From assembly GCA_010672785.1 (NCBI GenBank), contig JAAHFX010000009.1, forward strand, positions 2,690 through 66,689: DNA of 64,000 nt. The letters run 5' to 3'. Made by a program: the position numbers and the translations under genes. The notes below the pieces were generated by a model. It saw only the letters and a program-made list of their open reading frames with translations. It made no database searches and was not told the origin of the DNA. How positions within the stretch are numbered: the first letter of the stretch is position 1; the number at the start of each line of letters is the position of its first letter. Shown here piece after piece: positions 10,951 through 27,252 of the stretch. This DNA is from Sphaerospermopsis sp. SIO1G1 (lineage in GTDB: Bacteria > Cyanobacteriota > Cyanobacteriia > Cyanobacteriales > Nostocaceae).

Positions 10951-13053
10951 CTAACCATCATAGGATTGATAGGTTAAATTTTCTGGAGCAGGAAAACTTG
11001 GTGTTGTGTGTCTTGAACTTCCGTTTCTGTGGTTTTCTAATTCCACCATATACTGAATCTCATGTGCAGCCACAGGAATATTTTCTTGGTTGAAACGTTC
11101 CTGAATCATCTGTATCAACTCATCATAAACATACCAAAAGTCTGCGTGAGTTGCCCATGCACCTACATACATGGTCATATAATATCCTTCATAATTCCAT
11201 AAAAATGTTGATGGTTTGGGATTTTCTAGAACTTTGGGATGAGATGTCAAAATTTCCATCAATAGGTTTCTGACTCTTGTCAAATCTTCTTCAAGTCCTA
11301 CTCGCAATAACAGACTAACCATGCGAATGTCACCGTGACTGAGATTTTCAATCATGCCGCTCCAAACAGTATTGTTAGGAATAACATACATCTGTCCAGT
11401 GAAGCCTGAAATTTTGGTACTAGCTAAAGAAATGGAATCTACATAACCCCAAATACCACCGAGTTTAACTTCATCACCAATATCAAAGGGTTTGTTAAAC
11501 ATAATCATCAAACCACTAGCAAAGTTACCCAAATTACTTTGCAAAGCGAATGCTAAGACGAAACTCGCACCCCCAACTAAAGCTAAGATTGGTCCCAGGC
11601 TAACTTCTAATGCTGTCAGTGCTAACAACACACCTACAACAACACCACCACGCTTGACAACCATCACTATGAACTGACGTAGTAGTTCAGAACCACCGTT
11701 CAATTGTTGCAGAGATTTATTAACAATATTCCCTAATGATTGAGAAACGAAGAAAGAAACACCAATAATTCCTACAAATTTACCGATGTTAATGGCCCAA
11801 CGTATACCACCTTCTTCCGATTGTAACCAACTCATAATCCTGACCCCTGCACCTTCAGTATCTTGTAAATCAATCGTAATGATACTGATGGCTTCAATAT
11901 ATTTTTTGTAGGAATCAGGAGTTCCACCTTTACGTTCTAGTTCATCAAGAACTACTTTGAATCTATCAACTAAGGCGGTTCTTTCAGATTGTAGTTCTGT
12001 AACTGTCGCTACGAGTTGATTTTTTAATTCAGCTTCTTCTTGAGCATTTTTATCTAAATTTTCTGCTGCTTGTTCTAATTTATCCCCTTGTTGCTGGATG
12101 CTTTCTTGATCTTTTAAGGAATCTACTGAACCAGCCACTTTTGTACTACCATCGCCATCAATTTGAGTATTATTCAGGGCTGCTTCTGTTTGATTTAATT
12201 CCTGAGAAGATTTTTCGGTTGTATCTTGTGTTTTCACACCTTCTACTTCGTCAACAATTGTCAGGAGATTTTTCTGTGCTGTTTCTAATTGTTGGGTAGC
12301 TGCTTCAAATTCTGCTGAATCAGGAACAGTTTCTTTTTGTTTGTTTTGTGCATCTTCAAAGTCTTTAATTGCTGCCTCTAATCTATCAATTTTTTGGGTA
12401 GCATTGTCATAAGCTAAAGAACCGGCTGTTAATTGTTCTCGCTGGCTTCTAAGCTTGTCTAAATCTACTTTTCCTCGGTCTAAGACTTCTGTTTCTTTTG
12501 CCTTGTCTATGGCATCCTTTAAGTTACTATCCTGTTGGATATCTTTTTTAGCTTCCTGGGCTGCTTGAATAGAATCTTGTGCCTTTTGTAAGTTATCCTT
12601 GGCTTCTTCAAATTTTTTAGTCGCCTCTTCATACTCTGAAGAACCAGGAGCAGCAGATTTCAGTTGTTCTTCAGCCTTACTGAGAGATTCCTGAGCATTT
12701 TTTAAAGCATCCGCAGCTTCTTGTTGTTTATTAATACTTTCGTTCTGTCGCTTAATAGCTATTTCTGCATCACTAACTTGTTGGACTTTGGTCTTGAGTA
12801 AAATTAACCAAGCTGCTGATTCATTTTCCAATTCCGCTAATGTTAGTGGCTTGAGTAACAATTCTAATTGATCAACTGGAACTGTTGGATCTTGAGTGGT
12901 GATCGCAAACTCAGGATTTCCACTAGTAGCAGGTTGAACTTTTTCGCTTGTTTCTGTTTCTGCCGCATTTTCTTGAGTTTTAGCTGGCATACTCCACAGT
13001 GTAAATAGGCACACTACACTGGCAATAACTACGGCACGTACTCGGTAGCGCAT
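10951..13053 (-). CDS. Large mechanosensitive channel (MscS family) with long periplasmic coiled-coil N-terminus
   Basis: Signal peptide, ~400 aa acidic helical region, then GASFVLAFALQSNLGNFASGLMIMFNKPFDIGDEV (MscS core). Confidence 0.88.
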   Translation of the reverse strand: MRYRVRAVVIASVVCLFTLWSMPAKTQENAAETETSEKVQPATSGNPEFAITTQDPTVPVDQLELLLKPLTLAELENESAAWLILLKTKVQQVSDAEIAIKRQNESINKQQEAADALKNAQESLSKAEEQLKSAAPGSSEYEEATKKFEEAKDNLQKAQDSIQAAQEAKKDIQQDSNLKDAIDKAKETEVLDRGKVDLDKLRSQREQLTAGSLAYDNATQKIDRLEAAIKDFEDAQNKQKETVPDSAEFEAATQQLETAQKNLLTIVDEVEGVKTQDTTEKSSQELNQTEAALNNTQIDGDGSTKVAGSVDSLKDQESIQQQGDKLEQAAENLDKNAQEEAELKNQLVATVTELQSERTALVDRFKVVLDELERKGGTPDSYKKYIEAISIITIDLQDTEGAGVRIMSWLQSEEGGIRWAINIGKFVGIIGVSFFVSQSLGNIVNKSLQQLNGGSELLRQFIVMVVKRGGVVVGVLLALTALEVSLGPILALVGGASFVLAFALQSNLGNFASGLMIMFNKPFDIGDEVKLGGIWGYVDSISLASTKISGFTGQMYVIPNNTVWSGMIENLSHGDIRMVSLLLRVGLEEDLTRVRNLLMEILTSHPKVLENPKPSTFLWNYEGYYMTMYVGAWATHADFWYVYDELIQMIQERFNQENIPVAAHEIQYMVELENHRNGSSRHTTPSFPAPENLTYQSYDG

Positions 13054-13305
13054 AAATGTTTTACCTATGAATAAAAGATGAGGACGGATTGATTAATTAA
13101 ACAAAATACTGTAGAGTACTTCATTGTTTTACATAGTTAATATTAATATAAGATTTGAGATAAATGAAAAATTACCTTAGATAAAACAAGATATCTTAAT
13201 TTTTCTTTAGCAAGTCAGCTATTTTAGTCAGTAAAACGCCAGCAGATAATTAAATTTCTCAAAAATGTACCAGTATGGTTTAATTGAGAGGATAAACATA
13301 AAAAT

Positions 13306-14694
13306 GTGCATTTTAAACATTTACAAAACTCTTATTACACCATGCAAACAATTCATAAGTCAAATCAAGCACTTGTAGACAAAGTTCCTAATCTTAGTAA
13401 TTGTATTTGTGAGAACTTAATTAATTATTTTCTAGAGTCTTGGGAAATTGAAGAAACACTACTCAAAAGTATAATAAACCAAAATACATTTTATCTCAAT
13501 CCTGATCCTTTAAGAAATAAACTAATCTTTTATCTGGGACATTCAGCAGTTTTCTATATCAATAAGTTAATTCGAGTTGGGTTATTAGAACAACCCATTC
13601 ATCCCCAGTTTGAAATATTATTTGAAATTGGAGTTGATCCAGAAACACCAGAAGAATTAGCAGCAGTAACAAAAGATATAGAATGGCCGGATGTAGATCA
13701 AGTTTGGCAATATCGAGAACAAGCCAAAAATGCAATTATAAAAATCATCAAAAATACCCCTTTAAATCTACCTATTCAAGCCCAACATCCCCTTTGGGCT
13801 TTATTAATGGCAATTGAACACAGTCGCATTCATTTTGAAACCTCTTCTATGTTGCTGCGACAATTACCTGTAGATAAATTAGAACGTCCTCATGGTTGGA
13901 ATTATGCCCCTACTCAAGGAAAAACTCCTGCAAATCCAATGATAGAAATTCCTGGTGGAGTGGTGAAATTAGGGAAAAGAACTGATGATTTAACCTTTGC
14001 TTGGGACATGGAATATGGTAGTTTGGAAGTGGAAGTAAAACCCTTTTTAGCTAGTCAAAATTTAATCACCAATGGGGAATTTTTAGAATTTGTGCAAGCT
14101 GGTGGTTATGAAAATTCCGACCATTGGGATGTGGAAGGGTGGAATTGGCAGCAGTTAAATAATGTACAACATCCGAAATTTTGGATACCTGAAAAGCCAG
14201 GTAATTATCGTTATCGTGCTACTTTTGATGAACTAGATTTACCTTTAGATTGGCCAGTAGAAGTCAATTTTTATGAAGCAATTGCCTACTGTTGTTGGCG
14301 GGGTAAAGGGACTCGGTTAATGACCGAAGCAGAATGGAATCAAGCCTTAATTTTTTCTGAGCAAAATTGTTTAGAAAATAGCTATAACCTCAATTTAAAA
14401 TATATTTCACCCTCCCCTGTAGGAATGTTGACAGATTCTCAAAAATCAGTAATTTCTGATTTACGGGGTAATGTTTGGGAATGGTTATCTAGTAAATTTT
14501 ATCCCTTACCAGGATTTGCACCTAATTATCTTTACGAAGATAATGCTCAACCTTTTTTTGATGATAAACATCAGATGATGTTGGGTGGTTCTTGGGCAAC
14601 TAATGGTACAATGGCTTTGCCTTGTTATAGAAATTGGTTTCGTCCTTTTTTCTATCAGCACGTTGGTTTTAGAATTGCTGAAAGTCTAGCCTAG
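13306..14694 (+). CDS. Short OvoA-type 5-histidylcysteine sulfoxide synthase homolog without a C-terminal methyltransferase; likely ergothioneine sulfoxide synthase
   Basis: LRNKLIFYLGHSAVFYINKL (OvoA-like DinB domain); iron motif H-x3-H-x-E (HSRIHFE); FGE-sulfatase domain (GNVWEW, GGSW, YRNWFRPFFYQHVGFR). A later start at ATG 13342 is likely. Confidence 0.85.
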   Translation: MHFKHLQNSYYTMQTIHKSNQALVDKVPNLSNCICENLINYFLESWEIEETLLKSIINQNTFYLNPDPLRNKLIFYLGHSAVFYINKLIRVGLLEQPIHPQFEILFEIGVDPETPEELAAVTKDIEWPDVDQVWQYREQAKNAIIKIIKNTPLNLPIQAQHPLWALLMAIEHSRIHFETSSMLLRQLPVDKLERPHGWNYAPTQGKTPANPMIEIPGGVVKLGKRTDDLTFAWDMEYGSLEVEVKPFLASQNLITNGEFLEFVQAGGYENSDHWDVEGWNWQQLNNVQHPKFWIPEKPGNYRYRATFDELDLPLDWPVEVNFYEAIAYCCWRGKGTRLMTEAEWNQALIFSEQNCLENSYNLNLKYISPSPVGMLTDSQKSVISDLRGNVWEWLSSKFYPLPGFAPNYLYEDNAQPFFDDKHQMMLGGSWATNGTMALPCYRNWFRPFFYQHVGFRIAESLA

Positions 14695-14797
14695 GTGAAA
14701 GGTGACAGTTTTCAAAAACTGTTTATATATGGCTGCATAGCCAAAAAAAAAGATCAAAAAAATTGTCAATAGTTAATTCCCCAGGGCGTAGTAAACC

Positions 14798-15787
14798 ATG
14801 ATTTCAAAAACATTGGAAGCAGAGAATTTAACGGTTTTAGATCATCACTATCATGAACTAAAAGATGAAGGGCAAGATGTAATTAAGGGTTTGAGTAATA
14901 GTCCTAAAACTCTATCTCCTAAGTATTTGTATGATGATCGAGGCTCTTTGTTGTTTGAAGAAATATGTGATTTACCAGAATATTATCCTACTCGTACAGA
15001 AGCAGGGATTTTAAAACAATATGCTGATGAAATTGCAGAAATTACAGGTTGTTGTGAGTTGATAGAATTAGGTAGTGGTAGTTCTACCAAAACCCAGTTT
15101 TTATTAGATGCTTATCAAAAGATTTCTGACTATTGTAAATATCTACCCATTGATGTTAGTGGTAGCATTCTTAAAACCAGTGTTTTACAGTTACAAGAGA
15201 AATATCCTGAATTTCAGGTTCATGGTTTATTAGGAACTTATGAACAGGCGTTAGTTCATTTAGAAACTAATTATTTGCAGTCACGGTTGTTATTTTTCTT
15301 GGGAAGTTCTTTAGGGAATTTTAATCCTCAAGAATGTGATCAGTTCTTATCTAAAGTTGCGCGTACTTTACATCCAGGAGATTACTTTTTATTGGGGATT
15401 GATTTACAGAAACCCAAGCATATTTTAGAAGCAGCTTACAACGATGCTCAAGGAGTAACCGCTGCTTTTAATTTGAATATGCTCTCCCATTTGAATTGGC
15501 GTTTTCAAGGTGATTTTGATCTCAAATTATTCAAACACCAGGCAATTTACAATGAAGTTGACAATCAAATCGAGATGTATCTATACTCACAAGGAAGTCA
15601 TTGGGTAAACATCAAAGACTTGAATTTAACAGTTTTCTTTGAAGCAGGAGAAAGTATTTTAACGGAAATCTCCCGGAAGTTTGATTTAACAAACATGAAA
15701 GAAAGTCTACAAAACAAGGGATTAAACCCGGTAAAAACTTGGACAGATGAAAAGGGATGGTTTGGTTTAATTCTTTGCCAAGCTTAA
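14798..15787 (+). CDS. egtD: L-histidine N(alpha)-methyltransferase
   Basis: LSPKYLYD, LPEYYPTRTE, ELGSGSSTKT, GSSLGNF, AYNDAQGVTAAFN, QIEMYL, ILTEISRKF; His-pocket residues intact. Confidence 0.93.
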   Translation: MISKTLEAENLTVLDHHYHELKDEGQDVIKGLSNSPKTLSPKYLYDDRGSLLFEEICDLPEYYPTRTEAGILKQYADEIAEITGCCELIELGSGSSTKTQFLLDAYQKISDYCKYLPIDVSGSILKTSVLQLQEKYPEFQVHGLLGTYEQALVHLETNYLQSRLLFFLGSSLGNFNPQECDQFLSKVARTLHPGDYFLLGIDLQKPKHILEAAYNDAQGVTAAFNLNMLSHLNWRFQGDFDLKLFKHQAIYNEVDNQIEMYLYSQGSHWVNIKDLNLTVFFEAGESILTEISRKFDLTNMKESLQNKGLNPVKTWTDEKGWFGLILCQA

Positions 15788-15828
15788 ATAAAAAACTGGT
15801 GTAATTAACAAGATCAAGAGGAGTAAAA

Positions 15829-16803
15829 ATGGCAAATATAGTTGGAGATAAAAAAGTTGTTCATAAACTAGAAGAAGACGTAAAAGCATTCTTTTTAGAG
15901 CAACTGAATGGCAATTTGTGGCCTTACTTGTATGGAACTCCTCAAAATGAAGATGATTTAGTTAAAGGTGGTATCCTATACAACGAAATGCTTGAAGGTG
16001 AACAAGACTATTACCTTTACAAGTATGAAGCAAAACTTTTCCAAAGCAAAGGAAATGTTCTGACTAACCTCATTGGCCCTGATGCAACATTTATTGAATT
16101 AGGCCCTGGTAGTGAACAAAGTATTCGTCTAAAAACTGTACCTTTACTTCGTTTTTGTCAAAACTTAAAGGGTTACCTAGGAATTGAAATTTCCCAATCT
16201 TTTTTGGATAAAGTTTTAGAAGTAATTAGTTCTGAACTACCTAATATCTATGTATCTGGTATTCAGAATGACTTTACCCAACTGGATAGCTTACCAGAAT
16301 TTGATAAACCTGTAATTTTGTTCAAAGGTAGTACCATTGCTAACTTGAGAAAAGACGAAGTTCCTGTTTTCATGTCTTACATCAAGGAATTAGTCGGTAA
16401 AACTCACTATGTACTCCTTGTACATGATGCAAACCAAGATGAAATTTCCTTAATGAAAGCTTACGATACTCCCAAAATGGCAGTATTTATGGAAAACATC
16501 ATGTGTCGTGTTCATCGTGATATGAATTTAGTTGATTTTGATCCACTGGCATTTCGTTATAAGCCTGAATGGCATTCAGAGTCTCATGATCTTAAGCACG
16601 TTCTCACTGCTACTAAATCACAAAAATTTGTGTTAGGAAATAAAACTGTAGAAATTACAGAAGGACAAAAATTCCACACTTTGAGTTCTTTCAAATATCC
16701 TACGGATGTCTTCCAAAAACTCATTAGTTCTGCTGGATATAAACCAGTAGATTTTGTTTTTGATGAGTCTGGGCGTATGGCTGCTCACATTTTTGAGGGA
16801 TAA
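15829..16803 (+). CDS. EgtD-family SAM-dependent methyltransferase, divergent paralog 1
   Basis: DYYL, FIELGPGS, FKGSTIANL, KAYD, HTLSSFKY align to the EgtD fold, but the side-chain pocket is changed. Confidence 0.82.
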   Translation: MANIVGDKKVVHKLEEDVKAFFLEQLNGNLWPYLYGTPQNEDDLVKGGILYNEMLEGEQDYYLYKYEAKLFQSKGNVLTNLIGPDATFIELGPGSEQSIRLKTVPLLRFCQNLKGYLGIEISQSFLDKVLEVISSELPNIYVSGIQNDFTQLDSLPEFDKPVILFKGSTIANLRKDEVPVFMSYIKELVGKTHYVLLVHDANQDEISLMKAYDTPKMAVFMENIMCRVHRDMNLVDFDPLAFRYKPEWHSESHDLKHVLTATKSQKFVLGNKTVEITEGQKFHTLSSFKYPTDVFQKLISSAGYKPVDFVFDESGRMAAHIFEG

Positions 16804-16881
16804 TACCTAATTATAGCGATCGCCTATCATCAATTAATATTAGTTAACGGTGATAGGCGATATGTATGATTGCAAAAATCA

Positions 16882-17091
16882 TATCAAGAAGTTATCTGGT
16901 AAAAATCAAAAGCTTAAATTAAAAAGTTTTCTGGAAAAATAGAGAAAGTATTTTCACTAAAATATCCCGAAAGTTTGATTGAAAAAAACATAGAAAAACA
17001 TCTGCAAATCAAGGTGTTAAAACCTGTCAAAATCTGGGCAGATGACAATGAATAATTTGATTGGATTTTTGACCAAGCTTAGATAAAAAAC
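16882..17091 (+). pseudogene. Degenerate copy of the egtD 3' end and its downstream spacer
   Basis: For example GAGAAAGTATTTTCAC...AAGTTTGATT...AAAACCTGTCAAAATCTGGGCAGATGA...CCAAGCTTAGATAAAAAAC parallels 15648-15798; contains stops and indels. Confidence 0.8.
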
Positions 17092-17237
17092 AGATTTTAA
17101 AAAGATAGGTTGGCGTTCAAAATTAATCTGTTAATCAATTCCCTATAAATGGGTTAATTCAAAGTTTTCACAAAACTGAACACACATTGGTTTTGTTGTT
17201 TTGGCTTACTTATACAACAACTCATCAGGAGTAAAAA

Positions 17238-18212
17238 ATGACAAATGTAATTGGAGATAAAAAAGTTGTTCATAAACTAGAAGAAGATGCAAAAGCATTC
17301 TTTCTGGATCAACTTGATGGCAATTTGTGGCCTTACTTGTATGGAACTCCCGAAGATGAAAACGACTTAGTTACAGGAGGTATCTTATACAATGAAATAT
17401 TAACACAAGAACCAGATTATTATCTTTACAAATATGAAGCAGAACTTTTCCAAAATAAAGGTGATTTTCTGACTAATATAATTGGTTCGGATGCAACAAT
17501 CATAGAATTAGGCCCTGGTAGTGAACAAAGTGTCCGTTTAAAAACTATACCCTTACTTCGTTCTTTTATTAATTTAAAGGGTTATTTAGGAATTGAAATT
17601 TCTCAATCTTTCTTGGATAAAGCATTAGCAGTAATTAGTTCTGAACTACCTAATATCCATGTGTCTGGCATTCAAAATGACTTTACCCAACTAGAAAGCT
17701 TACCAGAATTTGATAAGCCTGTAATTTTGTTTAAAGGTAGTACAATTGGCAATTTAAGAAAAGATGAAGTTCAAGATTTCATGTCATATATCAAGAACTT
17801 AGTGGGTAAAACTCACTATGTACTCCTTGTACACGATGCAAATCAAGATGAAGTTTCCTTAATGAAAGCTTACAATACACCTAAAGTAGCAATGTTCGTT
17901 AAGAATATCATTTTTCGTTTTCATCGTGATATGAATTTAGTTGATCTTGATCCATCAGCATTTCGTTATCAATCAGAATGGCATTCAGAGTCTCATGATC
18001 TTAAACACATTCTCACTGCTACTAAATCACAAAAATTTGTGTTAGGAAATCAAACTGTAGAAATTAAAGAAGGACAAAAATTCCACACTTTGAGTTCTTT
18101 TAAATATCCCACTGATGTTTTCCAAAAACTCATTAGTTCTGCTGGATATAAACCAGTAGATTTTACTTTTGATGAGTCTGGGCGTATGGCTGCTCATATT
18201 TTTGAGGGCTAG
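17238..18212 (+). CDS. EgtD-family SAM-dependent methyltransferase, divergent paralog 2
   Basis: Same length (324 aa) and colinear with 15829-16803, with long identical blocks (e.g. GQKFHTLSSFKYPTDVFQKLISSAGYKPVDF). Confidence 0.82.
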   Translation: MTNVIGDKKVVHKLEEDAKAFFLDQLDGNLWPYLYGTPEDENDLVTGGILYNEILTQEPDYYLYKYEAELFQNKGDFLTNIIGSDATIIELGPGSEQSVRLKTIPLLRSFINLKGYLGIEISQSFLDKALAVISSELPNIHVSGIQNDFTQLESLPEFDKPVILFKGSTIGNLRKDEVQDFMSYIKNLVGKTHYVLLVHDANQDEVSLMKAYNTPKVAMFVKNIIFRFHRDMNLVDLDPSAFRYQSEWHSESHDLKHILTATKSQKFVLGNQTVEIKEGQKFHTLSSFKYPTDVFQKLISSAGYKPVDFTFDESGRMAAHIFEG

Positions 18213-18216
18213 GATT

Positions 18217-18323
18217 TACAGCAGATTTCATTCATAAGAGTTACAAATCATAATCATAAGACTCTTGTGGGGTGGGCATCTTGCCCGCCAATGATGTACC
18301 TCATGACACTGGAAAGTGCTGTA
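18217..18323 (+). mobile_element. 107-bp MITE-like repeat, family B
   Basis: Direct copy of 10699-10805, located 4 bp after the stop codon of paralog 2. Confidence 0.85.
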
Positions 18324-18858
18324 TTCAGTTGTTTTAACAGCAGGGAGAAAGAGGCAGGGTGCAGGGTGAAGGGTGAAATTAAGTTTGCGCTATTACTTAA
18401 TAAGACGCTATCGAGGTGAGAATATTACCCGAAAGCGTTTTAATTTATCACACAAGAAAGCGCTGTAATTAGGGAATAGACATCCAAAACTCTTGCCTGT
18501 TGCCTCTTAGTCTCTACGGAAACACTTTTTGCTGCAAACCCTAATTACTGATTAAATTAAGATTCCCAGTCACCAATCACCAGTCACTTTTTCTGCAAGC
18601 ACTAATTAATATGGATCTGATTTGAGAGCAATCGCCTCTCCAGAAAATCAAACAATAAAGTTAAAGCAAAATATTGAGAATGATAATCACGTTATGTTAG
18701 TTGGTTTTGTGGCACAAAGCCTTTCTTGTTATTCCATTGGCAAGTATTAGTGTAAATTATGGCTACACAGCGTGTTTTCTAGGAAGGTCAAATCATATCT
18801 AAATGACTTTAATGCTAGAATCATAAGTTGTTCTACCAAAGTCAAACCTAAATAAACA

Positions 18859-19974
18859 ATGGAATCCATATTTAACGCGCTGAATAGCTTAGATTATTCC
18901 AATGTTCCGATTGGGAAGATATCAGCTGTAATTGTAGTCATAACAGTCACACAAACATTAAGAAGATTTGTCTTAGGAATTATTGTTAAAACTATTGAAA
19001 AATTCACCAGTCAGACGGAAACGACACTGGACGATGAATTAATTGCCATTCTTAAACCAGCATTGAATTGGCTCATTTTTATTAGTGGATTTTGGATAGT
19101 TAAGGAAATTATTTCCGAGGATTTAGGTCCAAAACTGGCTGAAAGTATTGGTAAAGCACTGAACCTAATAGTGGTTTTTATTATCGCCTATGTTGTTTAC
19201 CGCTCTGCATCAATTTTAGGACAACTAATTGCTAACTTTGTTTTACACACGGAAACTGAACTTGATGAATTACTGAAGCCATTAATGCCTAAGATTTTTC
19301 AAGCCGTAGCAATTATTGTGATTGCAATTAAAACTAGTGAGATATTTTTAGGACAATCTGCGGGAGCTTTAGTTGGTTTACTCGGTGGTGCGGGGCTGAC
19401 AATAGGACTACTATTTAAAGATATTGTTTATGATTGGTTTTGTACAATTATTATCTATTCAGATAATCTCTACAGAGAAGGTGATTGGGTGGGAATATCA
19501 GGGGTAGATGGTTTTGTTGAAATCAAAAATATAGGCTTTAGAACTACCACTTTACACCTAGCTAAGTGGGGATCAATCGTAAAAATGCCCAATTCTCGGA
19601 TGATCACTGGAATTGTCGACAATTGGTCTCAGAATCCAGGAGAAGAACTCAGATGGGGTTTAGCAACAACTATCAGAATTGACGGTATTTCTGCCAAACA
19701 AACTGCTAGGATTTGTGATGCTATGGAAGAAATGCCAAAATCAATAGCAGGTTTTGATCCTAGTTGTCTAGTTCGCTTCAAGAAAATTGAAGGAAATGCC
19801 CGTGTTCTTGAAATTATGGCATTTGTGAATGATGATAATCTTTATTTGGCCGCAGAGAGAAACTTACATTTAGCCATCTTAGAACTTTTAGAACAAGAAG
19901 GTATAGACTCTCTCTATGTGGAGTTAATTACAGAAACAGGAAAGTATAATCCCAGTCCAAGTTTCAACAATTAA
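18859..19974 (+). CDS. Mechanosensitive ion channel, MscS family
   Basis: TM helices; GGAGLTIGLLFKD...YREGDWV...IGFRTT...PNS. Confidence 0.88.
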   Translation: MESIFNALNSLDYSNVPIGKISAVIVVITVTQTLRRFVLGIIVKTIEKFTSQTETTLDDELIAILKPALNWLIFISGFWIVKEIISEDLGPKLAESIGKALNLIVVFIIAYVVYRSASILGQLIANFVLHTETELDELLKPLMPKIFQAVAIIVIAIKTSEIFLGQSAGALVGLLGGAGLTIGLLFKDIVYDWFCTIIIYSDNLYREGDWVGISGVDGFVEIKNIGFRTTTLHLAKWGSIVKMPNSRMITGIVDNWSQNPGEELRWGLATTIRIDGISAKQTARICDAMEEMPKSIAGFDPSCLVRFKKIEGNARVLEIMAFVNDDNLYLAAERNLHLAILELLEQEGIDSLYVELITETGKYNPSPSFNN

Positions 19975-20004: not shown

Positions 20005-20610
20005 ATGAAAACCAAAAACACTACTACTAACATCAACACGATTTATCCCAATAAAATCTGGACAAAAGTATTACTAATTACAGGGATAATTTTTTGTACA
20101 TCTTCTATGTATTCTTCTCCCGTTCAAGCTCAATCAAAAATTGACCAAGGAATTAACAACGACAAAATTTTAATAGCCCAAACTCTAGGAGGAATCATCC
20201 GCAAAATTCCTATTTCTGAAGTTCCACTTCCAGCCATGTCAGCGGCAAAAACAGTCACAAATGCTCAGTTTAACCAAGCTAGAATTGAACTGCAATCAGA
20301 GGGTTCTTCGATCTATGTACTCAGAGGTAAAAATCAACAAGGTTTTGAAGTAGAAGTGCAAGTTTCTCCTAGCGGAACAATTATGCAAGTAGACGAACAA
20401 ATAGATCCCACTTCAGTACCAGAAATTGCTGTTAGATCTTTTAAAAGATGGGCCCCCAATGATCCTCTGTTAAGTATTTGGCGTAGTACCAGACTAGGGG
20501 AATTATACTACCAATTTGTGATTGAGGAATTTTGGTTAGAAGTCTCCACCGATGGAGAAAAAGTTATTATTTATGACAGAACAAAATTGACACAGAGTTT
20601 AGGCAGATGA
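20005..20610 (+). CDS. Secreted protein with PepSY-like (BLIP-like) repeats
   Basis: Signal peptide AQS; two units beginning ISEVPLPA... and PTSVPEIA..., each followed by Y-x-x-x and EV-x-V-S-x-x-G. Confidence 0.55.
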   Translation: MKTKNTTTNINTIYPNKIWTKVLLITGIIFCTSSMYSSPVQAQSKIDQGINNDKILIAQTLGGIIRKIPISEVPLPAMSAAKTVTNAQFNQARIELQSEGSSIYVLRGKNQQGFEVEVQVSPSGTIMQVDEQIDPTSVPEIAVRSFKRWAPNDPLLSIWRSTRLGELYYQFVIEEFWLEVSTDGEKVIIYDRTKLTQSLGR

Positions 20611-20862: not shown

Positions 20863-22443
20863 ATGGACATTTTAATCATTCTAGCTGAAGTTTTTTTAGT
20901 CATTCTATTTTTCATCATCCTGAGATTAATGGTGGCTAGTTCATTTAAGATATTAACTAGATTATCAATACTCAAGGGTGACAATTTAAAAATAAAAATA
21001 TTACGCCGTAACATCACTGGATTGTTGTTGCTGATATGTTTATTATTATGTACTGCTATTATCGGTATTAATAGTTTTCTCATCTATCAGGGGGAAAATC
21101 TCCAAGAATATACAATCAACCTCATTAATCAGATTCCTACTGGATTTTGGTTTGAATTGGGAAAAGGAATTGCTCAATGCTTTGTTTTGGTATTTGTAGC
21201 ATTTCTAGCTGTCAAGTTGACAAAATATTTATTCAAAAAAGCTAGTAATAAAGCTAAGAGATTTACAGAAAGCATCGCAGATGATGAAAGTATTGATGCT
21301 TTTTTTACCGCCCTTAATACAAGAATGAAAGTAGGAATTTGGATATGGGTTGTGATTGCCTGTACCCAATTCTTGCGTTTACCCATAGTAATCTTAGAAT
21401 ATTTATACATTGGACTGCGAATTTATCTAATTATTGCGGTAGGATTACTAATACTTAAAGCAGTAGATGCAATTGTTGACACTATAGATGTTCTGAGTGT
21501 CAGATACTCCAGTCCTGATCAAATATTGAGATTTTATGATCCCCTCAAACATCTGATTCCATTTTTAAAAAGATGTTTAGAATTGGTAATTTATGTCTGC
21601 ATACTAACATTAGTAATTCAGCAGGTAAAACTAATAGCTAACTTAGCAGGTTTTGGAGTTAAAATTATCCAAATTATCGCTATTATTTTTATCAGTCGTG
21701 TTATTTTCCAAGTAATTTGTTTACTGATGGAAGAGTTTTTATTACGAGATAATAGTTTAACTGATACCCAAAGAAGTAGACGTTTAACTCTAATTCCTTT
21801 ATTCCGCAGTTTATTACAATATCTTACTTACTTTACGGCGGCGGTTTCCATTCTCTATATTCTTAATATTAATCCCACTCCAATTTTAGCCGGTGCTGGT
21901 ATTGTTGGTCTCGCTGTAGGTTTAGGAGCGCAAACACTAATTAATGATATGGTTTGTGGGTTTTTTATTTTGTTTGAAAACTATTACTTAGTAGGTGATT
22001 ATATTCAGACAGTGAAAGAAGAAAGAACATTAGAAGGCGTTGTGGAAGCAATAGAATTGAGAACAACTCGAATTAGACATCCCAATGGACAATTGTATAT
22101 TATCCGTAATGGAGAGATTGGCTCAATTACAAATTATTCTAAAGATTACATCTTTGCTGTAGTAGAACTTAATGTACCTCATGATTCTGATTTAGCTGCT
22201 ATAGCTCAAAAAATTGAAGCAATAGGTAAACAATTACAAGTGAATGATCCTAATATACTTGAACCTACTTTTGTAGATGGTATAGAAAGTATTGGTGAGT
22301 CTAACTTGTTATTGCGAACTTTGACAAAAATGAAACCAGGACAACATCTTCAAGTACAGCGTACTCTTCGGAAAATTTATATAGATACTTTTTTAGCAGA
22401 GGGAATTTTACTTTCTACAGCTAATGAAGATAGCAATGATTAA
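20863..22443 (+). CDS. Mechanosensitive ion channel, MscS family, with extended N-terminal membrane region
   Basis: LAGAGIVGLAVGLGAQTLINDMVCGFFILFENYYLVGDYI...LRTTRIR...IIRNG. Confidence 0.9.
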   Translation: MDILIILAEVFLVILFFIILRLMVASSFKILTRLSILKGDNLKIKILRRNITGLLLLICLLLCTAIIGINSFLIYQGENLQEYTINLINQIPTGFWFELGKGIAQCFVLVFVAFLAVKLTKYLFKKASNKAKRFTESIADDESIDAFFTALNTRMKVGIWIWVVIACTQFLRLPIVILEYLYIGLRIYLIIAVGLLILKAVDAIVDTIDVLSVRYSSPDQILRFYDPLKHLIPFLKRCLELVIYVCILTLVIQQVKLIANLAGFGVKIIQIIAIIFISRVIFQVICLLMEEFLLRDNSLTDTQRSRRLTLIPLFRSLLQYLTYFTAAVSILYILNINPTPILAGAGIVGLAVGLGAQTLINDMVCGFFILFENYYLVGDYIQTVKEERTLEGVVEAIELRTTRIRHPNGQLYIIRNGEIGSITNYSKDYIFAVVELNVPHDSDLAAIAQKIEAIGKQLQVNDPNILEPTFVDGIESIGESNLLLRTLTKMKPGQHLQVQRTLRKIYIDTFLAEGILLSTANEDSND

Positions 22444-22536: not shown

Positions 22537-25110
22537 ATGAAAAATTTTAACACAGTATCTACTAAATACTCAAAATTTATAACTGCTACTTTAGTCGGTG
22601 CAACAACTACTATTTTTACAGCTAATACTGCATTTGCTCAAGTATTGAGAGGTGCTGGTGATGGTTTTGTAGAACCATTGCTAGAAAGTTATCGCCAAGA
22701 ATATGAAAAAGAAACAGGTGAAAAATTCAAATATACTGCTGTTGGTAGCGGTGGAGGAATTAGATTTTTTATTAATGACTCTGTAGATTTTGCTGCTACT
22801 ACTTTAATTCCTAGCCCCATTGAAATCAATCAAATGAAAGATGGTGCATTAATGTTGCCAACAGGGGGCGGTAGTATATCTGTTATTTATAATTTGCAAG
22901 AAGTTAGTAGCACGGTGCAATTATCCCGTGAAAAATTAGCGAAAATATTCACAGGTGAAATCACAAATTGGCAACAGGTAAATCCTAGATTTCCGAATCT
23001 AGAAATTCAAGTAGTAACTTGTGCTAAAAATTGTAGCACCAATTTTATTCTTACCAAATATCTCAATAAAATTACTGGGGGAAAAATATTACCTAGTAGA
23101 AATCCAGAATGGAGTTTTCCGATTTTTTCAGAATTAACAGATGACAGTGCGATCGCTGGCGAAGTACGCAGAACCGATGGAGCAATTGGTTATGTACAAA
23201 CTAGTGTAGCAATGAGAGAAAATATTACGATTGCTAGTCTGGAAAATAAGAGTGGTAATTATGTTCAACCAACTTTAGCAGAAACAAGAAAAGCCTTAGC
23301 AAATGTCAAATTCAGTAGTGATTTTACCACCGAAGATATTCAAGATCCAGAAAGTGGTTATCCTTTGGTGAGTTTAACTTGGCTATTACTTCCTCAAAGG
23401 TATGATGATCCAGAAGTTCTCGCCAAAACCCAAAAATTATTAGGATGGATTTTTACCCAAGGACAACAATTAAATCAAAATTTAGGATATACAAAAGTTC
23501 CTGATGAAATTAATAAAAAAGCCATTGCAGCCATTAAAAATCAATTACAAGTTGGTTCTGTAGCAGGAGTTAGCGGCAACAATTTAAAATTAAATTATAT
23601 CGGTAATTTATATGATAATGCTCCCAGTAATGTCCGACCAATTGTTAATGTCAACAAATTAGTAGATGTGAGTCCTCAACATTGGGCTTATTCAGCATTG
23701 AATGATTTGGCTGAACAACATCAATGTTTGAGTGGTACTTCTCGCAATACTTTTTCTGGGAATAGATCATTAAGTCGCCATGAATTTGCATTTATGTTAC
23801 ATTCCTGTTTATGGCAAATTAGACTTTCCTTAGATGATTTAAGAAAAAATAAAATTGCTGATGAAGATGATTTAGCAGTTGTACAAAGATTACAAACAGA
23901 ATTTAGTCAAGAACTAGAACAAGTATCCCAGAGAGTAGATAACTTAGAATCAAAAACAGCCACAATTCAAGCCCAGCAATTTAGTACAACTACTGTTTTA
24001 AAAGGCAGAGTTGATTTTAATGCCATTAGTGGTTTTGGTGATCGCAAAGCAGTACCTCCTGGTACTAATAACGCTGAAAAATTAACAGCAAATCCCACCT
24101 TTTCTGGCAGAGCATCATTAACTCTAGATACCAGTTTTACAGGTAAAGATAAACTGCAAACTCAACTAGTTGCAGGGAATATTAATAACCTCAGTAGTGC
24201 GATCACAGGCACAGATATGACAAGGTTAATCGGTGCTACAAACACAGGTAATGATGTGATATTGGGAACAATATATTATCAATTTCCTGTAGGAGATAAA
24301 GGCATAATTGCGATCGCACCAGCAGCAGATTTTCCTACTCGTATTTTTCCTGCACTTAACCCAGTCAGTTCCATTTCTAACTTTGGTGCAGAAAGTCCCA
24401 TTTATTCCTTTGCATTTGGTAGTGGTGCAATCGGTTACTATCAATTTAGTGATCAATTAGCAGCAGGAATTAGTTATTTAAGTCTTTCGGGTAATGATCC
24501 CAGTGAAGGAGGATTATTTGGGGGACAATATACCCTATTAAGTCAAATAACTTATACCCCATCAGATCAGCTAGGTATTGCTTTTACCTATGGTAATTAT
24601 TATGCACCCAGACCAGGATCAAGTCTTAATGTAACTGGTAGTAAAGGTAGTGAATTTGGTCAATTACCATTTGGAGGAGATACACCTACTTCTTCCAATG
24701 CTTTTGGTTTACAACTAACCTATAAAATCACTGATAAATTAGTGTTGGGCGGTTGGACAAGCTATTTTAATACAGAAAGCCAAGCCACAGCTAATTTGAA
24801 TGGAGTTAACTTTGATGCTGGTGCTAATGCAGATATTTGGAGTTGGGCAGTCACAGCATCCTTAACAGATATAGCTAAATCAGGTAGTCAGTTAAGTTTT
24901 GTATTTGGAATGCCACCTAAAGTTACAAGCAATGATATCTTGCAACGACAGGATCAAGATACTTCCTTACATTTTGAATTATCTTATCGTTACCCATTAA
25001 CAGAAAGAATTAATCTTACCCCTGGATTTTTAATGATTACTAATCCAGAACATAATAACGCTAATGATACAATCTGGGTAGGATTATTGAGAACCTCATT
25101 TAGTTTTTGA
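22537..25110 (+). CDS. Fusion of a PstS-fold substrate-binding domain with an SLH domain and OprB-type (carbohydrate/iron-uptake) porin
   Basis: One signal peptide (TAFA/Q). Residues ~35-337 are PstS-like (GAG, VGSGGG, DGAIGYV, GYPLVSLTWLL). Then SLH-like DVSPQHWAYSALNDL...LSRHEFA, a coiled coil, QFSTTTVLKG and a beta-barrel ending in ...RTSFSF. Confidence 0.88.
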   Translation: MKNFNTVSTKYSKFITATLVGATTTIFTANTAFAQVLRGAGDGFVEPLLESYRQEYEKETGEKFKYTAVGSGGGIRFFINDSVDFAATTLIPSPIEINQMKDGALMLPTGGGSISVIYNLQEVSSTVQLSREKLAKIFTGEITNWQQVNPRFPNLEIQVVTCAKNCSTNFILTKYLNKITGGKILPSRNPEWSFPIFSELTDDSAIAGEVRRTDGAIGYVQTSVAMRENITIASLENKSGNYVQPTLAETRKALANVKFSSDFTTEDIQDPESGYPLVSLTWLLLPQRYDDPEVLAKTQKLLGWIFTQGQQLNQNLGYTKVPDEINKKAIAAIKNQLQVGSVAGVSGNNLKLNYIGNLYDNAPSNVRPIVNVNKLVDVSPQHWAYSALNDLAEQHQCLSGTSRNTFSGNRSLSRHEFAFMLHSCLWQIRLSLDDLRKNKIADEDDLAVVQRLQTEFSQELEQVSQRVDNLESKTATIQAQQFSTTTVLKGRVDFNAISGFGDRKAVPPGTNNAEKLTANPTFSGRASLTLDTSFTGKDKLQTQLVAGNINNLSSAITGTDMTRLIGATNTGNDVILGTIYYQFPVGDKGIIAIAPAADFPTRIFPALNPVSSISNFGAESPIYSFAFGSGAIGYYQFSDQLAAGISYLSLSGNDPSEGGLFGGQYTLLSQITYTPSDQLGIAFTYGNYYAPRPGSSLNVTGSKGSEFGQLPFGGDTPTSSNAFGLQLTYKITDKLVLGGWTSYFNTESQATANLNGVNFDAGANADIWSWAVTASLTDIAKSGSQLSFVFGMPPKVTSNDILQRQDQDTSLHFELSYRYPLTERINLTPGFLMITNPEHNNANDTIWVGLLRTSFSF

Positions 25111-25149: not shown

Positions 25150-25647
25150 ATGATGAGACCACAACCTATAACACCAAAACCAGGACAAGAATCTGTTTGG
25201 GACTATCCCCGTCCAGCAATTTTACAAGATACCGATAAGCACCTCAAAGTAATTTGTAATGGTATTGTTTTAGCCGAAACTACTAGAGCTAAAAGAGTAT
25301 TAGAAACCAGTCATCCACCTACTTATTATTTTCCACCAGAAGATATTAAAATAGAATATCTAATAGCCACACCTAGAAAGACTTTATGTGAATGGAAAGG
25401 TAGATGTCAGTATTATGATCTTTCCATAGAAGGCAAGTATATAAATACCGCAGCTTGGCGATATTTTGATGCCACTCCTGATTTTGTTCCCATTCAAGAA
25501 TATTATGGTTTGTATGCCAGTGTCATGGATGCTTGTTATGTAAATGATGAGTTAGTTATTCATCAAGCTGGCGATTTTTATGGTGGATGGATCACTGCGG
25601 ATATTGTTGGCCCATTTAAAGGTGAAGCTGGTACTTGGGGATGGTAA
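25150..25647 (+). CDS. DUF427 domain protein
   Basis: ESVWDYPRP, VLETSHPPTYYFP, CEWKG, FYGGWIT. Confidence 0.9.
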   Translation: MMRPQPITPKPGQESVWDYPRPAILQDTDKHLKVICNGIVLAETTRAKRVLETSHPPTYYFPPEDIKIEYLIATPRKTLCEWKGRCQYYDLSIEGKYINTAAWRYFDATPDFVPIQEYYGLYASVMDACYVNDELVIHQAGDFYGGWITADIVGPFKGEAGTWGW

Positions 25648-25742
25648 ATAATCAGCCATAATTCAGAATAGAATTATTTTTCGTTAGGTTGGGTGAAGCT
25701 ATAGTGCAACCCAACAAAATTCATTAAATCTTAAATTTACTC

Positions 25743-25830
25743 AGGACTTACGCAGAAGTTACGGAAGAATAAACCACGAAGGAAAGGATACGAAAATCAG
25801 AAAGTTGGAGAAATATTTTGCGTAAGTCCT
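25743..25830. mobile_element. MITE-like repeat, family A
   Basis: AGGACTTACGCA...TGCGTAAGTCCT termini. Confidence 0.8.
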
Positions 25831-25896
25831 ATTACTAATGTTAATCTAATCTACATGATCATAATTCACATTATTATATAGACAATAACTTAAATA

Positions 25897-27252
25897 ATGA
25901 AAATTTCAGTAGTTAAAATTGAGAATTTGACAGTTCATGAACATCATCTAGATATTCTCTATAGTGCTGATAAATTTAATTTTTCCACTAAGATTTTTTA
26001 TCATGATGTTTCTTTTTCTGGGTTAATTAGCAAATACTCTCAACCCTTTATCCAGAAAATTGCTGCCCATATAGCCTTATTTGAAGGGATGAAACTATGT
26101 TCTCTCTTCCCACAGTTTTATGATATTTCTAATATTGCTGAATATTTAGAACCCCCAGTTATAGACTTGTTTGTGCAAATATATCAAGGGGTATTTGGGC
26201 AACATTGGTATGAAAATAATATTACCGACTATCAACAACCAGAAATTATTTACTCCCAAGAATTAGGAGTAAGTCAACCTCTGGCAATTTTAGATGAGAA
26301 TGAAACTATTCTCGCTGGTTGTGGTGGTGGTAAAGATAGTATTGTTGCTATGAAAATGTTAGAAGCAGCAAACATTGATTTTGCTTCCATGCAGTATTCC
26401 CATAGCGTTTATGGAAAAGCTGATTTTCAGCATGAGTTAATATCTCAAGTTGTCGAAGATTTGCAACCAAATAATAAACATCAAATCTCTATTTTTGATG
26501 ATTTTACAGACTTTCCATTTCTGCAATTGTATTTTTCTCAAAATTCCGGTATTACTGCACCAGAAACACCAGTATCAATTTTTGAATCTTTGATTTTAAT
26601 GTTAGATAAAGGATATAAATATTTATGTTTAGCACATGAAAAAAGTGCAAACACTGGTAATTTATTTTGGGATGAAATCGGCAAAGAAGTGAATCATCAA
26701 TGGGGTAAAGGTTTAGAAGCAGAAGAGATTTTAGATCAATTTATTCAAAATCACCTAATAACTAACTTCAAATATTTTAGTATTTTACAACCAATTTACG
26801 ATTACCGCATTTTCCAAAACTTTAGTCAATATCCTGAATTTATAACCAAAACTCATTCATGTAATATCAAAAAACCCTGGTGCAAAAAATGTCCTAAATG
26901 TGCCTATGTTTGGTTAGGAATGATGGCATTTTCACAGCAAAACTTAGTCAATGAAGTTTTTGAAAATAACTTATTTGATGATGAAGATTTACTTCCTACC
27001 TTCCGCCAAATGGTAGGTTTAGGTGAACACACACCCTTTGAATGTATTGGTGAAATTGAAGAAAGTCGGTTATTGATGAAAAGATGTTTAGAAAGGGGTT
27101 TAACTGGGAAAGCTTTGGATATGTTTACTGAAGAGATTTTATCAAAAAGTAAAATTAATTGGCAGAAAATAGAAGATAAATATAATTACGTTTACGCAAC
27201 AGAACACGCTATTCCTGATTGGATATTTGAGAGAATTAAGGAACTGTTTTAA
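25897..27252 (+). CDS. MurL-like (UDP-MurNAc-L-Ala-L-Glu epimerase family) PP-loop protein
   Basis: GGGKDS PP-loop; HEKSA...EVNHQWGKG; YFSILQP; HSCN...WCKKCPKC; FENNLFDD; HTPFECIGE..ESR in the order found in MurL. Confidence 0.72.
   Translation: MKISVVKIENLTVHEHHLDILYSADKFNFSTKIFYHDVSFSGLISKYSQPFIQKIAAHIALFEGMKLCSLFPQFYDISNIAEYLEPPVIDLFVQIYQGVFGQHWYENNITDYQQPEIIYSQELGVSQPLAILDENETILAGCGGGKDSIVAMKMLEAANIDFASMQYSHSVYGKADFQHELISQVVEDLQPNNKHQISIFDDFTDFPFLQLYFSQNSGITAPETPVSIFESLILMLDKGYKYLCLAHEKSANTGNLFWDEIGKEVNHQWGKGLEAEEILDQFIQNHLITNFKYFSILQPIYDYRIFQNFSQYPEFITKTHSCNIKKPWCKKCPKCAYVWLGMMAFSQQNLVNEVFENNLFDDEDLLPTFRQMVGLGEHTPFECIGEIEESRLLMKRCLERGLTGKALDMFTEEILSKSKINWQKIEDKYNYVYATEHAIPDWIFERIKELF

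What the first reader, a model, noticed from the sequence alone, without database searches (positions are those of the whole stretch)
22639..23200. The fused PstS domain has lost its phosphate ligands and gained a C-x3-C pair in the binding cleft
Seen: the canonical PstS motif H-R-S-D-G-S-G-T-T reads T-C-A-K-N-C-S-T-N (Cys162 at 23020-22, Cys166 at 23032-34). GAG-A-S/T-F becomes GAG-D-G-F, DFGASD becomes DFAATT, and the G-K-G-N-x-G loop becomes ELTDDS. Only the GSG serine is kept. Established: in E. coli PstS, Thr10, Ser38, Asp56, Arg135, Asp137, Ser139 and Thr141 bind phosphate. Inference: the Arg135 and Ser139 positions are both Cys, so this domain probably does not bind phosphate. It may bind a thiophilic ligand (metal ion, arsenite/antimonite, or a thiol such as ergothioneine made next door), or use a disulfide as a redox switch. 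I saw no convincing SphR/Pho box upstream, which fits a non-phosphate role.
Basis: partly seen in the sequence, partly recalled or inferred. Interest (0 to 1): 0.75.

Follow-up and report, generated by a model that had tools for sequence, protein, structure and literature searches.

The report
Porin-fused PstS-like domain without phosphate site
A cyanobacterial outer-membrane porin carries a fused periplasmic domain that descends from the phosphate-binding protein PstS; it has lost most of its phosphate-binding residues and gained a co-varying pair of cysteines in the old pocket, and it belongs to an undescribed, widespread "binding protein plus porin" gene module that is routinely annotated as PstS.

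Summary
Window 22537-25110 (+) is one intact 857-aa ORF: signal peptide, PstS-fold domain, SLH/coiled-coil stalk and OprB barrel. Against E. coli PstS, Thr10 is Gly43, Asp56 is Thr89, Arg135 is Cys162, Asp137 is Lys164 and Ser139 is Cys166.

These changes are not specific to the fusion. The domain belongs to a cyanobacterial lineage of about 340-aa PstS-like proteins. Their gene is followed by an orthologous porin gene wherever the contig reaches (about 60 species) and is never near pstCAB. Fusion of the two genes arose at least twice.

Ligand loss was stepwise:
- Basal members are canonical.
- Most members have Asp56 replaced by Thr or Ser.
- One clade gained both Cys by single-base changes, together with Ala9 to Asp.

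In that clade the two Cys are the only cysteines in the mature domain (17/17; other groups have none in 54/55), and they were later lost together at least twice. The domain is under purifying selection (dN/dS 0.13-0.27).

My reading: phosphate binding is lost, and the Cys pair is most likely a periplasmic disulfide in the emptied pocket. The domain survives as the porin's periplasmic partner for an unknown, non-phosphate role. No coordinates were available, so the Cys-Cys distance is unmeasured.

The parts
22537..25110 (+). Fused gene, 857 aa: signal peptide, PstS-like domain, linker, SLH-like region, coiled coil, OprB barrel
   Evidence: ORF. Pfam PBP_like_2 (aa 35-292, 1e-30) and OprB (aa 445-857, 6e-39). 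NCBIfam por_somb 441 bits.
22537..22638 (+). Sec-type signal peptide (aa 1-34, ...TAFA|QVL)
   Evidence: Read from the sequence. The AF2 model has pLDDT below 50 for aa 1-35. The cleavage site is inferred.
22639..23556 (+). PstS-fold periplasmic domain (aa 35-340)
   Evidence: AF2 pLDDT 82.8. Foldseek TM 0.78-0.90 to PstS structures 5wnn, 1ixi, 7xg8 and 9k3x. dN/dS 0.13-0.27.
22660..22665 (+). Asp42-Gly43, at the E. coli Ala9/Thr10 positions
   Evidence: Asp42 accompanies loss of Arg135 in the C, N and G groups. Gly43 is found only in the window, L007 and L008.
22747..22749 (+). Ser71 = Ser38 (retained ligand)
22801..22803 (+). Thr89 at the Asp56 position (the low-barrier hydrogen-bond aspartate)
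   Evidence: Among 120 standalone relatives this position is T in 89, S in 28, N in 3 and never Asp.
23020..23022 (+). Cys162 (TGT) at the Arg135 position; last residue of strand 158-162
   Evidence: The ancestral codon CGY becomes TGY by one transition.
23026..23028 (+). Lys164 at the Asp137 position (specific to the fused subclade)
23032..23034 (+). Cys166 (TGT) at the Ser139 position; N-cap of helix 167-179
   Evidence: The ancestral codon AGC becomes TGC by one change.
23038..23040 (+). Thr168 = Thr141 (retained ligand)
23557..23664 (+). Fusion linker (aa 341-376). It replaces the binding protein's stop codon, the intergenic spacer and the porin's signal peptide
   Evidence: Junction alignment with the unfused sister locus L009 and with L004, L013 and L065
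23665..23790 (+). SLH-like segment (aa 377-418) with the conserved Cys397
   Evidence: Pfam SLH 17.2 bits, below the 20.8 cut-off. Invariant columns.
23869..25107 (+). OprB-type beta-barrel (aa 445-857)
   Evidence: Orthologues next to standalone binding-protein genes are 46-83% identical. The six paralogues in the own genome are 30-40% identical.
20005..20610 (+). 201-aa exported protein of unknown family; first gene of the conserved three-gene module
   Evidence: A homologue lies directly upstream of the binding-protein gene in nearly all loci. No Pfam, NCBIfam or PDB match.
20863..22443 (+). MscS-family channel inserted between the 201-aa gene and the fused gene
   Evidence: Pfam. The same arrangement occurs in L009 and L065.
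10951..19974 (.). Neighbourhood found only with the Arg-less clade: MscS (-), OvoA-like sulfoxide synthase, EgtD, two EgtD-like methyltransferases, MscS
   Evidence: Synteny tally.
25150..27252 (+). DUF427 gene and MurL-like gene, further conserved neighbours in that clade

Best explanation
SHOWN: The gene is an in-frame fusion of two genes that are adjacent in a conserved cyanobacterial module: a small exported protein, a PstS-like binding protein and an SLH/OprB porin. The binding-protein part keeps the PstS fold and is under purifying selection. It belongs to a porin-linked lineage that has no pstCAB partner. That lineage lost the phosphate ligands stepwise. Basal members are canonical. Most members have Asp56 replaced by Thr or Ser. 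One clade (Nostocales plus Aerosakkonemataceae) changed Arg135 to Cys and Ser139 to Cys, each by one base change, together with Ala9 to Asp. The fused subclade added Ser10 to Gly and Asp137 to Lys.

INFERRED: The domain no longer binds phosphate. The two Cys are the only Cys in an exported domain. They always occur together, at a strand end and a helix N-cap of the former anion pocket, in a genome that has a VKOR oxidase. They most likely form a disulfide that staples the emptied loop. That disulfide is structural and possibly redox-sensitive; it is not a ligand site. The domain is retained because it works with its porin on the periplasmic side, as a trap or gate for a non-phosphate solute or as a ligand-independent partner. 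In this clade the solute may relate to the adjacent ergothioneine/betaine and MscS genes, but it is unknown.
For: - Ligand mapping.
- PstS fold.
- TIGR00975 score 181.7, below the cut-off of 205. There is a score gradient of 330 (own PstS), 250-258 (canonical porin-linked), 224-235 (R and Q groups), 209-210 (Cys and Gly standalone) and 182 (window).
- The own genome has two canonical pstSCAB operons.
- In about 60 cyanobacterial species the binding-protein gene is followed by an orthologous porin wherever the contig reaches, and is nearly always preceded by the 201-aa gene.
- No pstC or pstA lies within 10 kb of any porin-linked member, whereas all 11 non-cyanobacterial PstS loci have pstC, and pstA and pstB wherever the contig extends.
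- Independent fusions in the window/Okeanomitos/Anabaena UHCC 0451/P0004 group and in Rivularia, with a clean junction.
- Tree: the Cys pair was gained once and lost as a pair at least twice, never back to Arg although that is one transition away.
- Cys census 17/17 against 54/55.
- dN/dS 0.13-0.27.
- VKOR homologue in the genome.
- In SphX, mutating the Thr or the Arg of the phosphate site abolishes binding or lowers affinity to the millimolar range (PMC13614923).
Against: - No structure coordinates were available, so the Cys-Cys geometry is unmeasured. In PstS the Arg135 and Ser139 side chains reach the same anion from different depths, so a disulfide may need loop rearrangement.
- No binding, redox or expression data exist.
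- A Lys at 164 plus the retained Ser71, Thr89 and Thr168 could in principle still hold an anion weakly.
- The porin partnership is inferred from synteny and fusion alone.
Confidence: 0.5

Rival explanations
1. The Cys pair, perhaps with Asp42, is a binding site for a thiophilic ligand: a metal ion, arsenite, or a thiol/thione such as ergothioneine made by the neighbouring genes. The domain then acts as a porin-tethered receptor for it.
For: Two Cys lie in the cleft at a helix N-terminus, an Asp has been gained and the Arg lost. The porin matches the 'iron uptake porin' model. The clade without Arg is the one embedded in the Egt/MscS neighbourhood: 19/22 against 0/43.
Against: The compartment is exported and oxidising, and the genome has VKOR. 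No conserved His, Met or third Cys is present. Position 164 between the Cys is hypervariable. Nostoc lineages and L027 lost both Cys yet kept the module and island. The synteny shift is a single evolutionary event.
Confidence: 0.15
2. The domain still binds phosphate or a related oxyanion with lower affinity, as the Asp-less S-type PstS SphX does, and hands it on from the porin.
For: Replacement of Asp56 by Thr or Ser need not abolish binding: S-type SphX, which has Ser at the aspartate position on a different (TIGR02136-type) scaffold, still binds phosphate at about 26-fold lower affinity (PMC13614923, abstract). Ser71, Thr89 and Thr168 are kept and Lys164 was gained. Basal and R-group members of the porin-linked lineage look competent for phosphate.
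Against: The window protein has no Arg135, has Gly at Thr10 and has a new Asp42. The equivalent SphX mutants T17A and R231A lose binding or fall to millimolar affinity. The TIGR00975 score is below its cut-off. Lineages that lost the Cys did not revert to Arg. No Pho box stands out above background, though that test is weak.
Confidence: 0.1
3. The pair is a reversible redox switch. Oxidation state changes the open/closed state of the Venus-flytrap domain and thereby porin permeability.
For: Cys166 sits at a helix N-cap, which favours a low pKa. The domain is tethered to, or encoded with, a porin. A thiol-biosynthesis cluster is adjacent.
Against: There is no direct evidence. The pair is dispensable in sister lineages. 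C-x3-C is not a known redox-active motif of the thioredoxin kind (my own knowledge).
Confidence: 0.15
4. The domain is a decaying remnant without function.
For: Most ligand residues are lost. The window genome's own gene call starts at residue 305 and skips the domain.
Against: dN/dS is 0.13-0.27, comparable to the barrel. The ORF is intact in four fused genomes and 55 or more unfused ones. Identity is 50-83% across orders. The AF2 model is confident.
Confidence: 0.03

Closest known systems
PstS (E. coli-type, TIGR00975; D-type of Lu et al. 2026)
   Same: Same fold (TM 0.8-0.9) and the same long scaffold, with best NCBIfam and PDB matches at 26-30% identity. Ser38 and Thr141 are retained.
   Different: Thr10, Asp56, Arg135, Asp137 and Ser139 are replaced. 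The score is below the equivalog cut-off. There is no pstCAB neighbour. The domain is fused to, or encoded beside, a porin.
S-type PstS / SphX of Synechocystis (PMC13614923)
   Same: The low-barrier hydrogen-bond aspartate is replaced by a hydroxyl residue. It is a cyanobacterial PstS paralogue with a presumably different role.
   Different: SphX is of the short TIGR02136 type (the window scores 66 bits there against a cut-off of 206.6), keeps an Asp-Arg-Thr triad and binds phosphate. The window domain has neither the Arg nor the Thr.
Cyanobacterial SLH-OprB porins (por_somb 'iron uptake porin'; OmpM-like tether porins)
   Same: The C-terminal 490 aa match at 441 bits. The architecture has an SLH-like segment, a long helix and a barrel.
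   Different: It carries a 340-aa binding-protein domain N-terminal to the SLH part. It belongs to a distinct orthologous group that always accompanies the PstS-like gene.
Porin and binding-protein pairs such as OprP/PstS (Pseudomonas) or LamB/MalE (E. coli)
   Same: An outer-membrane channel and a periplasmic binding protein serve one uptake route (my own knowledge).
   Different: Those binding proteins deliver to an ABC importer encoded with them. Here no importer is linked, and the two partners are repeatedly fused into one polypeptide.

Membership tests
PstS, phosphate ABC transporter substrate-binding protein (TIGR00975) | PstS/class II binding-protein fold | tested here: met
   AF2 pLDDT 82.8. 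Foldseek TM 0.78-0.90 to PstS structures.
PstS, phosphate ABC transporter substrate-binding protein (TIGR00975) | Score at or above the curated equivalog cut-off | tested here: not met
   181.7 bits against a cut-off of 205. The own genome's canonical PstS scores 329.8.
PstS, phosphate ABC transporter substrate-binding protein (TIGR00975) | Phosphate ligand set Thr10, Ser38, Asp56, Arg135, Ser139, Thr141 (plus Asp137) | tested here: not met
   Only Ser38 and Thr141 are retained.
PstS, phosphate ABC transporter substrate-binding protein (TIGR00975) | Encoded with pstC, pstA and pstB | tested here: not met
   No pstC or pstA lies within 10 kb in any porin-linked locus. The own genome's two pstSCAB operons are elsewhere.
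PstS, phosphate ABC transporter substrate-binding protein (TIGR00975) | High-affinity phosphate binding | not testable with these tools
   Needs ITC or DSF on purified protein.
S-type PstS (SphX-like; Lu et al. 2026) | Asp56 position occupied by Ser or Thr | tested here: met
   Thr89.
S-type PstS (SphX-like; Lu et al. 2026) | TIGR02136-type scaffold with a Thr/Ser-centred Asp-Arg triad | tested here: not met
   TIGR02136 scores 66 bits against a cut-off of 206.6. The Thr10 equivalent is Gly and there is no pocket Arg. The triad is defined.
SLH-OprB porin (NF033921 por_somb / PF04966) | Family models above their cut-offs | tested here: met
   NF033921 scores 441 bits against 100. PF04966 scores 135 bits against 22.9.
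SLH-OprB porin (NF033921 por_somb / PF04966) | N-terminal SLH domain | tested here: inconclusive
   PF00395 scores 17.2 bits, below the 20.8 cut-off, at aa 377-418.
Porin-linked PstS-like module (defined here) | Binding-protein gene directly upstream of an orthologous OprB porin, preceded by the 201-aa exported protein, with no ABC genes | tested here: met
   In the window the first two are fused, and an MscS gene sits between the 201-aa gene and the fusion.
Disulfide-bonded periplasmic domain | Even number of Cys in an exported domain; geometry compatible with an S-S bond; oxidase present | tested here: inconclusive
   Exactly 2 Cys in 17/17 members. VKOR is present. The Cys-Cys distance could not be measured because no coordinates are returned.

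The most novel reading that the evidence does not exclude
The PstS-derived protein is the periplasmic receptor of a porin-coupled system with no ABC importer. In the Nostocales/Aerosakkonemataceae clade it has been retargeted from phosphate to a cationic or zwitterionic solute made or released by the adjacent ergothioneine/betaine and MscS genes. The Cys162-Cys166 pair acts as a redox- or thiol-responsive element that controls ligand capture or porin gating. The repeated fusions would then be direct evidence that periplasmic binding proteins can work physically on porins.
Probability: 0.12. Interest if true: 0.8.

Novelty: new variant of a known kind. Interest (0 to 1): 0.55.

Why it matters
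Several hundred cyanobacterial proteins of this lineage are named 'phosphate ABC transporter substrate-binding protein PstS' by automatic annotation. The standalone Cys-type members score 209-210 bits against a cut-off of 205. They lack key phosphate ligands, have no transporter partner and always accompany a dedicated porin. Counting them as phosphate-uptake genes in genomic or metagenomic surveys of phosphorus stress is therefore probably wrong.

The conserved pairing and the repeated fusion give a testable case of a periplasmic binding protein that works with an outer-membrane channel and not with an ABC importer. The graded series, from canonical through Asp-less and Arg-less to the Cys pair, is a natural experiment on how an anion pocket is dismantled or repurposed.

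Tried and rejected
- A full-length AF2 model from the 6-sequence alignment failed (pLDDT 33) and says nothing about domain docking.
- Structure prediction returns no coordinates, so the Cys-Cys distance could not be measured.
- The Pho-box scan (three YTTAAYYW units at 11-bp spacing) does not discriminate in this AT-rich genome. The own pstS controls scored 19-20/24, the region upstream of the fused gene 18/24, and shuffles 17-18.
- The promoter/terminator scan gave no more sites than shuffled sequence.
- The 201-aa module protein has no Pfam, NCBIfam or PDB match. Its PepSY-like look is an impression only.
- Literature searches found no description of the module, the fusion or the Cys variant.
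- I considered and rejected three ideas. An assembly artefact is ruled out because the fusion is present in four or more independent genomes. Decay is ruled out by dN/dS. Membership of the SphX S-type is ruled out by the different scaffold and the missing triad.
Full report
**1. What is there**

Window 22537-25110 (+) is a single open frame of 857 aa. It has four parts:
- a Sec-type signal peptide;
- a PstS-like domain at aa 35-340 (Pfam PBP_like_2);
- a short linker followed by an SLH-like segment, which scores below the Pfam cut-off, and a long helix;
- an OprB barrel, which matches NCBIfam 'por_somb iron uptake porin' at 441 bits.

An AlphaFold2 model of the N-terminal domain, built on 66 homologues, has pLDDT 82.8. 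Its best structural matches are PstS proteins at TM 0.78-0.90.

**2. The observation**

I aligned the domain to E. coli PstS with HMMER and in a 127-sequence MAFFT alignment with scripted E. coli numbering. The equivalences are:

| E. coli PstS | Window protein | Status |
|---|---|---|
| Ala9 | Asp42 | changed |
| Thr10 | Gly43 | changed |
| Ser38 | Ser71 | kept |
| Asp56 | Thr89 | changed |
| Arg135 | Cys162 (TGT 23020-22) | changed |
| Asp137 | Lys164 | changed |
| Ser139 | Cys166 (TGT 23032-34) | changed |
| Thr141 | Thr168 | kept |

Codons were checked. The one slip is that the Thr141 equivalent survives as well as the GSG serine. The TIGR00975 PstS equivalog scores 181.7 bits, below its cut-off of 205.

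**3. The genome has real PstS elsewhere**

The assembly is 5.19 Mb and 100% complete. It contains two full pstS-pstC-pstA-pstB operons whose PstS proteins keep every ligand. One of them scores 329.8 bits on TIGR00975. The fused domain is the only member of its own lineage in this genome.

**4. Relatives and context**

Only five other fused proteins were found among 5.8 billion sequences:
- Okeanomitos corallinicola (83% identity), Anabaena sp. UHCC 0451 (78%) and one metagenomic protein (70%), all with V-[TV]-C-A-K-N-C-S-T;
- two Rivularia-type proteins (about 60% identity) with V-R-S-N-S-S-G-T.

Searching with the domain alone gives over 2300 hits. The best 120 are standalone cyanobacterial proteins of about 340 aa at 50-69% identity.

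The context of one of them (AP018298.1) was decisive. The binding-protein gene lies 170 bp upstream of a separate 576-aa OprB porin gene, in the same neighbourhood as in the window.

A survey of 79 species-representative loci with 10-kb flanks gave these results:
- The binding-protein gene is followed on the same strand by an orthologue of the window's porin part (46-83% identity) in every cyanobacterial locus that extends far enough. These loci cover Nostocales, Microcoleus, Floridaenema, Moorena, Symploca, Coleofasciculus, Rivularia, Xenococcus/Pleurocapsa, Hormoscilla and Prochlorothrix.
- It is nearly always preceded by a homologue of the window's 201-aa exported protein (20005-20610).
- The own genome's six other OprB porins are only 30-40% identical to the fused one, so this is a dedicated porin lineage.
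- None of these loci has pstC or pstA within 10 kb. All 11 non-cyanobacterial PstS loci recovered by the same search have pstC, and pstA and pstB wherever the contig extends.

The window gene is therefore a fusion of two neighbouring genes of a conserved three-gene module. The junction replaces the binding protein's stop codon, the spacer and the porin's signal peptide.

On the tree, fusion arose at least twice. One event is in the window/Okeanomitos/Anabaena UHCC 0451/P0004 group, whose sister Sphaerospermopsis is unfused. The other is in Rivularia. Among 301 sampled genomes of the order, 41 carry the lineage, and the window's is the only fused copy.

**5. History of the pocket**

An IQ-TREE phylogeny places the porin-linked proteins in one clade (support 100/99), apart from canonical PstS. 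The ligand states fall into steps:
- Basal members (a Prochloraceae genome, and the second Moorena copy) keep the full canonical set.
- Most members have Asp56 replaced by Thr or Ser with everything else canonical (marine Symploca, Pleurocapsa, Coleofasciculus, Rivularia).
- Arg135 then becomes Gln (Microcoleus), His (Moorena) or, in one well-supported clade of 23 sequences (100/99), Cys.
- In that clade Ser139 is also Cys and Ala9 is Asp.
- Each Cys is one base change from the ancestral codon: CGY to TGY and AGC to TGC.
- Within the clade both Cys were lost together at least twice (a Nostoc group and L027), going to Asn or Gly plus Ser. They never went back to Arg, although that is a single transition.
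- Gly43 and Lys164 are specific to the fused subclade.

So the ligand losses and the Cys pair predate the fusion.

**6. Is the pair meaningful?**

In the mature domain, all 17 Cys-type sequences have exactly two cysteines, and 54 of 55 others have none. Only one of 127 sequences has a single Cys at these sites.

In the model, Cys162 ends strand 158-162 and Cys166 caps helix 167-179. This is the strand-loop-helix element that holds phosphate in PstS. The protein is exported, and the genome encodes a VKOR-family oxidase.

The pattern of 'two or none' in an otherwise Cys-free periplasmic domain is the usual signature of a disulfide. I could not measure the distance because no coordinates are returned.

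Two points argue against a specific new ligand site. The residue between the Cys (position 164) varies freely (D/G/N/E/K/Q). The pair is also dispensable in sister lineages that keep everything else.

**7. Selection**

dN/dS for the binding domain is 0.13-0.27. The barrel gives 0.13-0.16 and the linker/SLH part 0.31-0.35. The domain is not decaying.

**8. Does it bind phosphate?**

This step is inferred. With no Arg135, Gly at Thr10, Thr at Asp56 and a new Asp42, high-affinity phosphate binding is very unlikely.

A 2026 study of Synechocystis PstS1 and SphX (PMC13614923) bears on this:
- Replacing the aspartate by Ser/Thr is compatible with binding at lower affinity.
- Removing the pocket Thr abolishes binding.
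- Removing the Arg lowers affinity to the millimolar range.

SphX has a different, shorter scaffold (TIGR02136 type) with an Asp-Arg-Thr triad. The window domain does not share either feature.

**9. Neighbourhood**

In the window the module is embedded among these genes:
- an OvoA-like sulfoxide synthase;
- EgtD;
- two EgtD-like methyltransferases;
- three MscS channels;
- DUF427;
- a MurL-like gene.

Such neighbours occur in 19 of 22 loci of the Cys/Asn/Gly clade and in 0 of 43 loci of the Arg/Gln/His groups. The remodelling of the pocket thus coincides with relocation next to these genes. Because this is one clade it counts as one event. It is a lead for the ligand, not evidence.

**10. Verdict**

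The interpretation 'no longer a phosphate receptor' is well supported. The thiophilic-ligand idea is possible but less likely than a disulfide.

The larger point is the undescribed module of binding protein and porin without a transporter. Its Cys-type members are annotated as PstS (209-210 bits against a cut-off of 205).

I found no paper describing the module, the fusion or the Cys variant.

Noticed in passing
window 23449-25110: The gene call stored for this genome (P0021, 553 aa) starts at residue 305 of the 857-aa frame, on an ATT codon read as Met. It therefore omits the PstS-like domain, although the frame is open from ATG 22537 with a GGAG upstream.
   Followed up: partly
window 23725-23727 and 23806-23808 (Cys397, Cys424): A second Cys pair in the SLH-like region is invariant in all six fused proteins. 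It is also present in the N-terminal region of the standalone partner porins (…KYQC…/…NRCL…), suggesting another periplasmic disulfide.
   Followed up: partly
window 13306-14694: The 'EgtB-like' gene matches the OvoA N-terminal model (TIGR04344) at 563 bits against a cut-off of 400, well above EgtB (210 bits against 360). It sits directly before a strong EgtD (400 bits).
   Followed up: no
window 15829-16803 and 17238-18212: There are two tandem divergent Methyltransf_33 genes, 84% identical to each other. A 72%-identical homologue lies near the binding-protein/porin module of Symploca sp. SIO1C2 (L050:3409-4368), outside the Egt-linked clade.
   Followed up: no
window 25897-27252: A 451-aa MurL-like protein scores NF041275 143 bits against a cut-off of 700. 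It is conserved next to DUF427 in the same neighbourhood in several Nostocales and Floridaenema.
   Followed up: no
L056, L057, L060, L063 (Moorena); G201, G118, G261: Moorena genomes carry two PstS-like genes flanking the 201-aa gene: one fully canonical and one His-type next to the porin. In three sampled genomes the second copy has an in-frame TAG.
   Followed up: no
window 23021-23039: The DNA encoding C-A-K-N-C-S-T is itself a 6-bp inverted repeat (GTGCTA…TAGCAC) that the terminator scan flagged. It is probably coincidental.
   Followed up: no
own genome C34:306291-307877: One of the six paralogous OprB porins lies about 10 kb upstream of a canonical pstSCAB operon (pstS at about C34:317226).
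   Followed up: no
window 20863-22443; L009, L065: An MscS-family gene is inserted between the 201-aa gene and the binding-protein gene in the window, Sphaerospermopsis and Plectonema radiosum. The insertion lies inside the otherwise contiguous three-gene module.
   Followed up: partly
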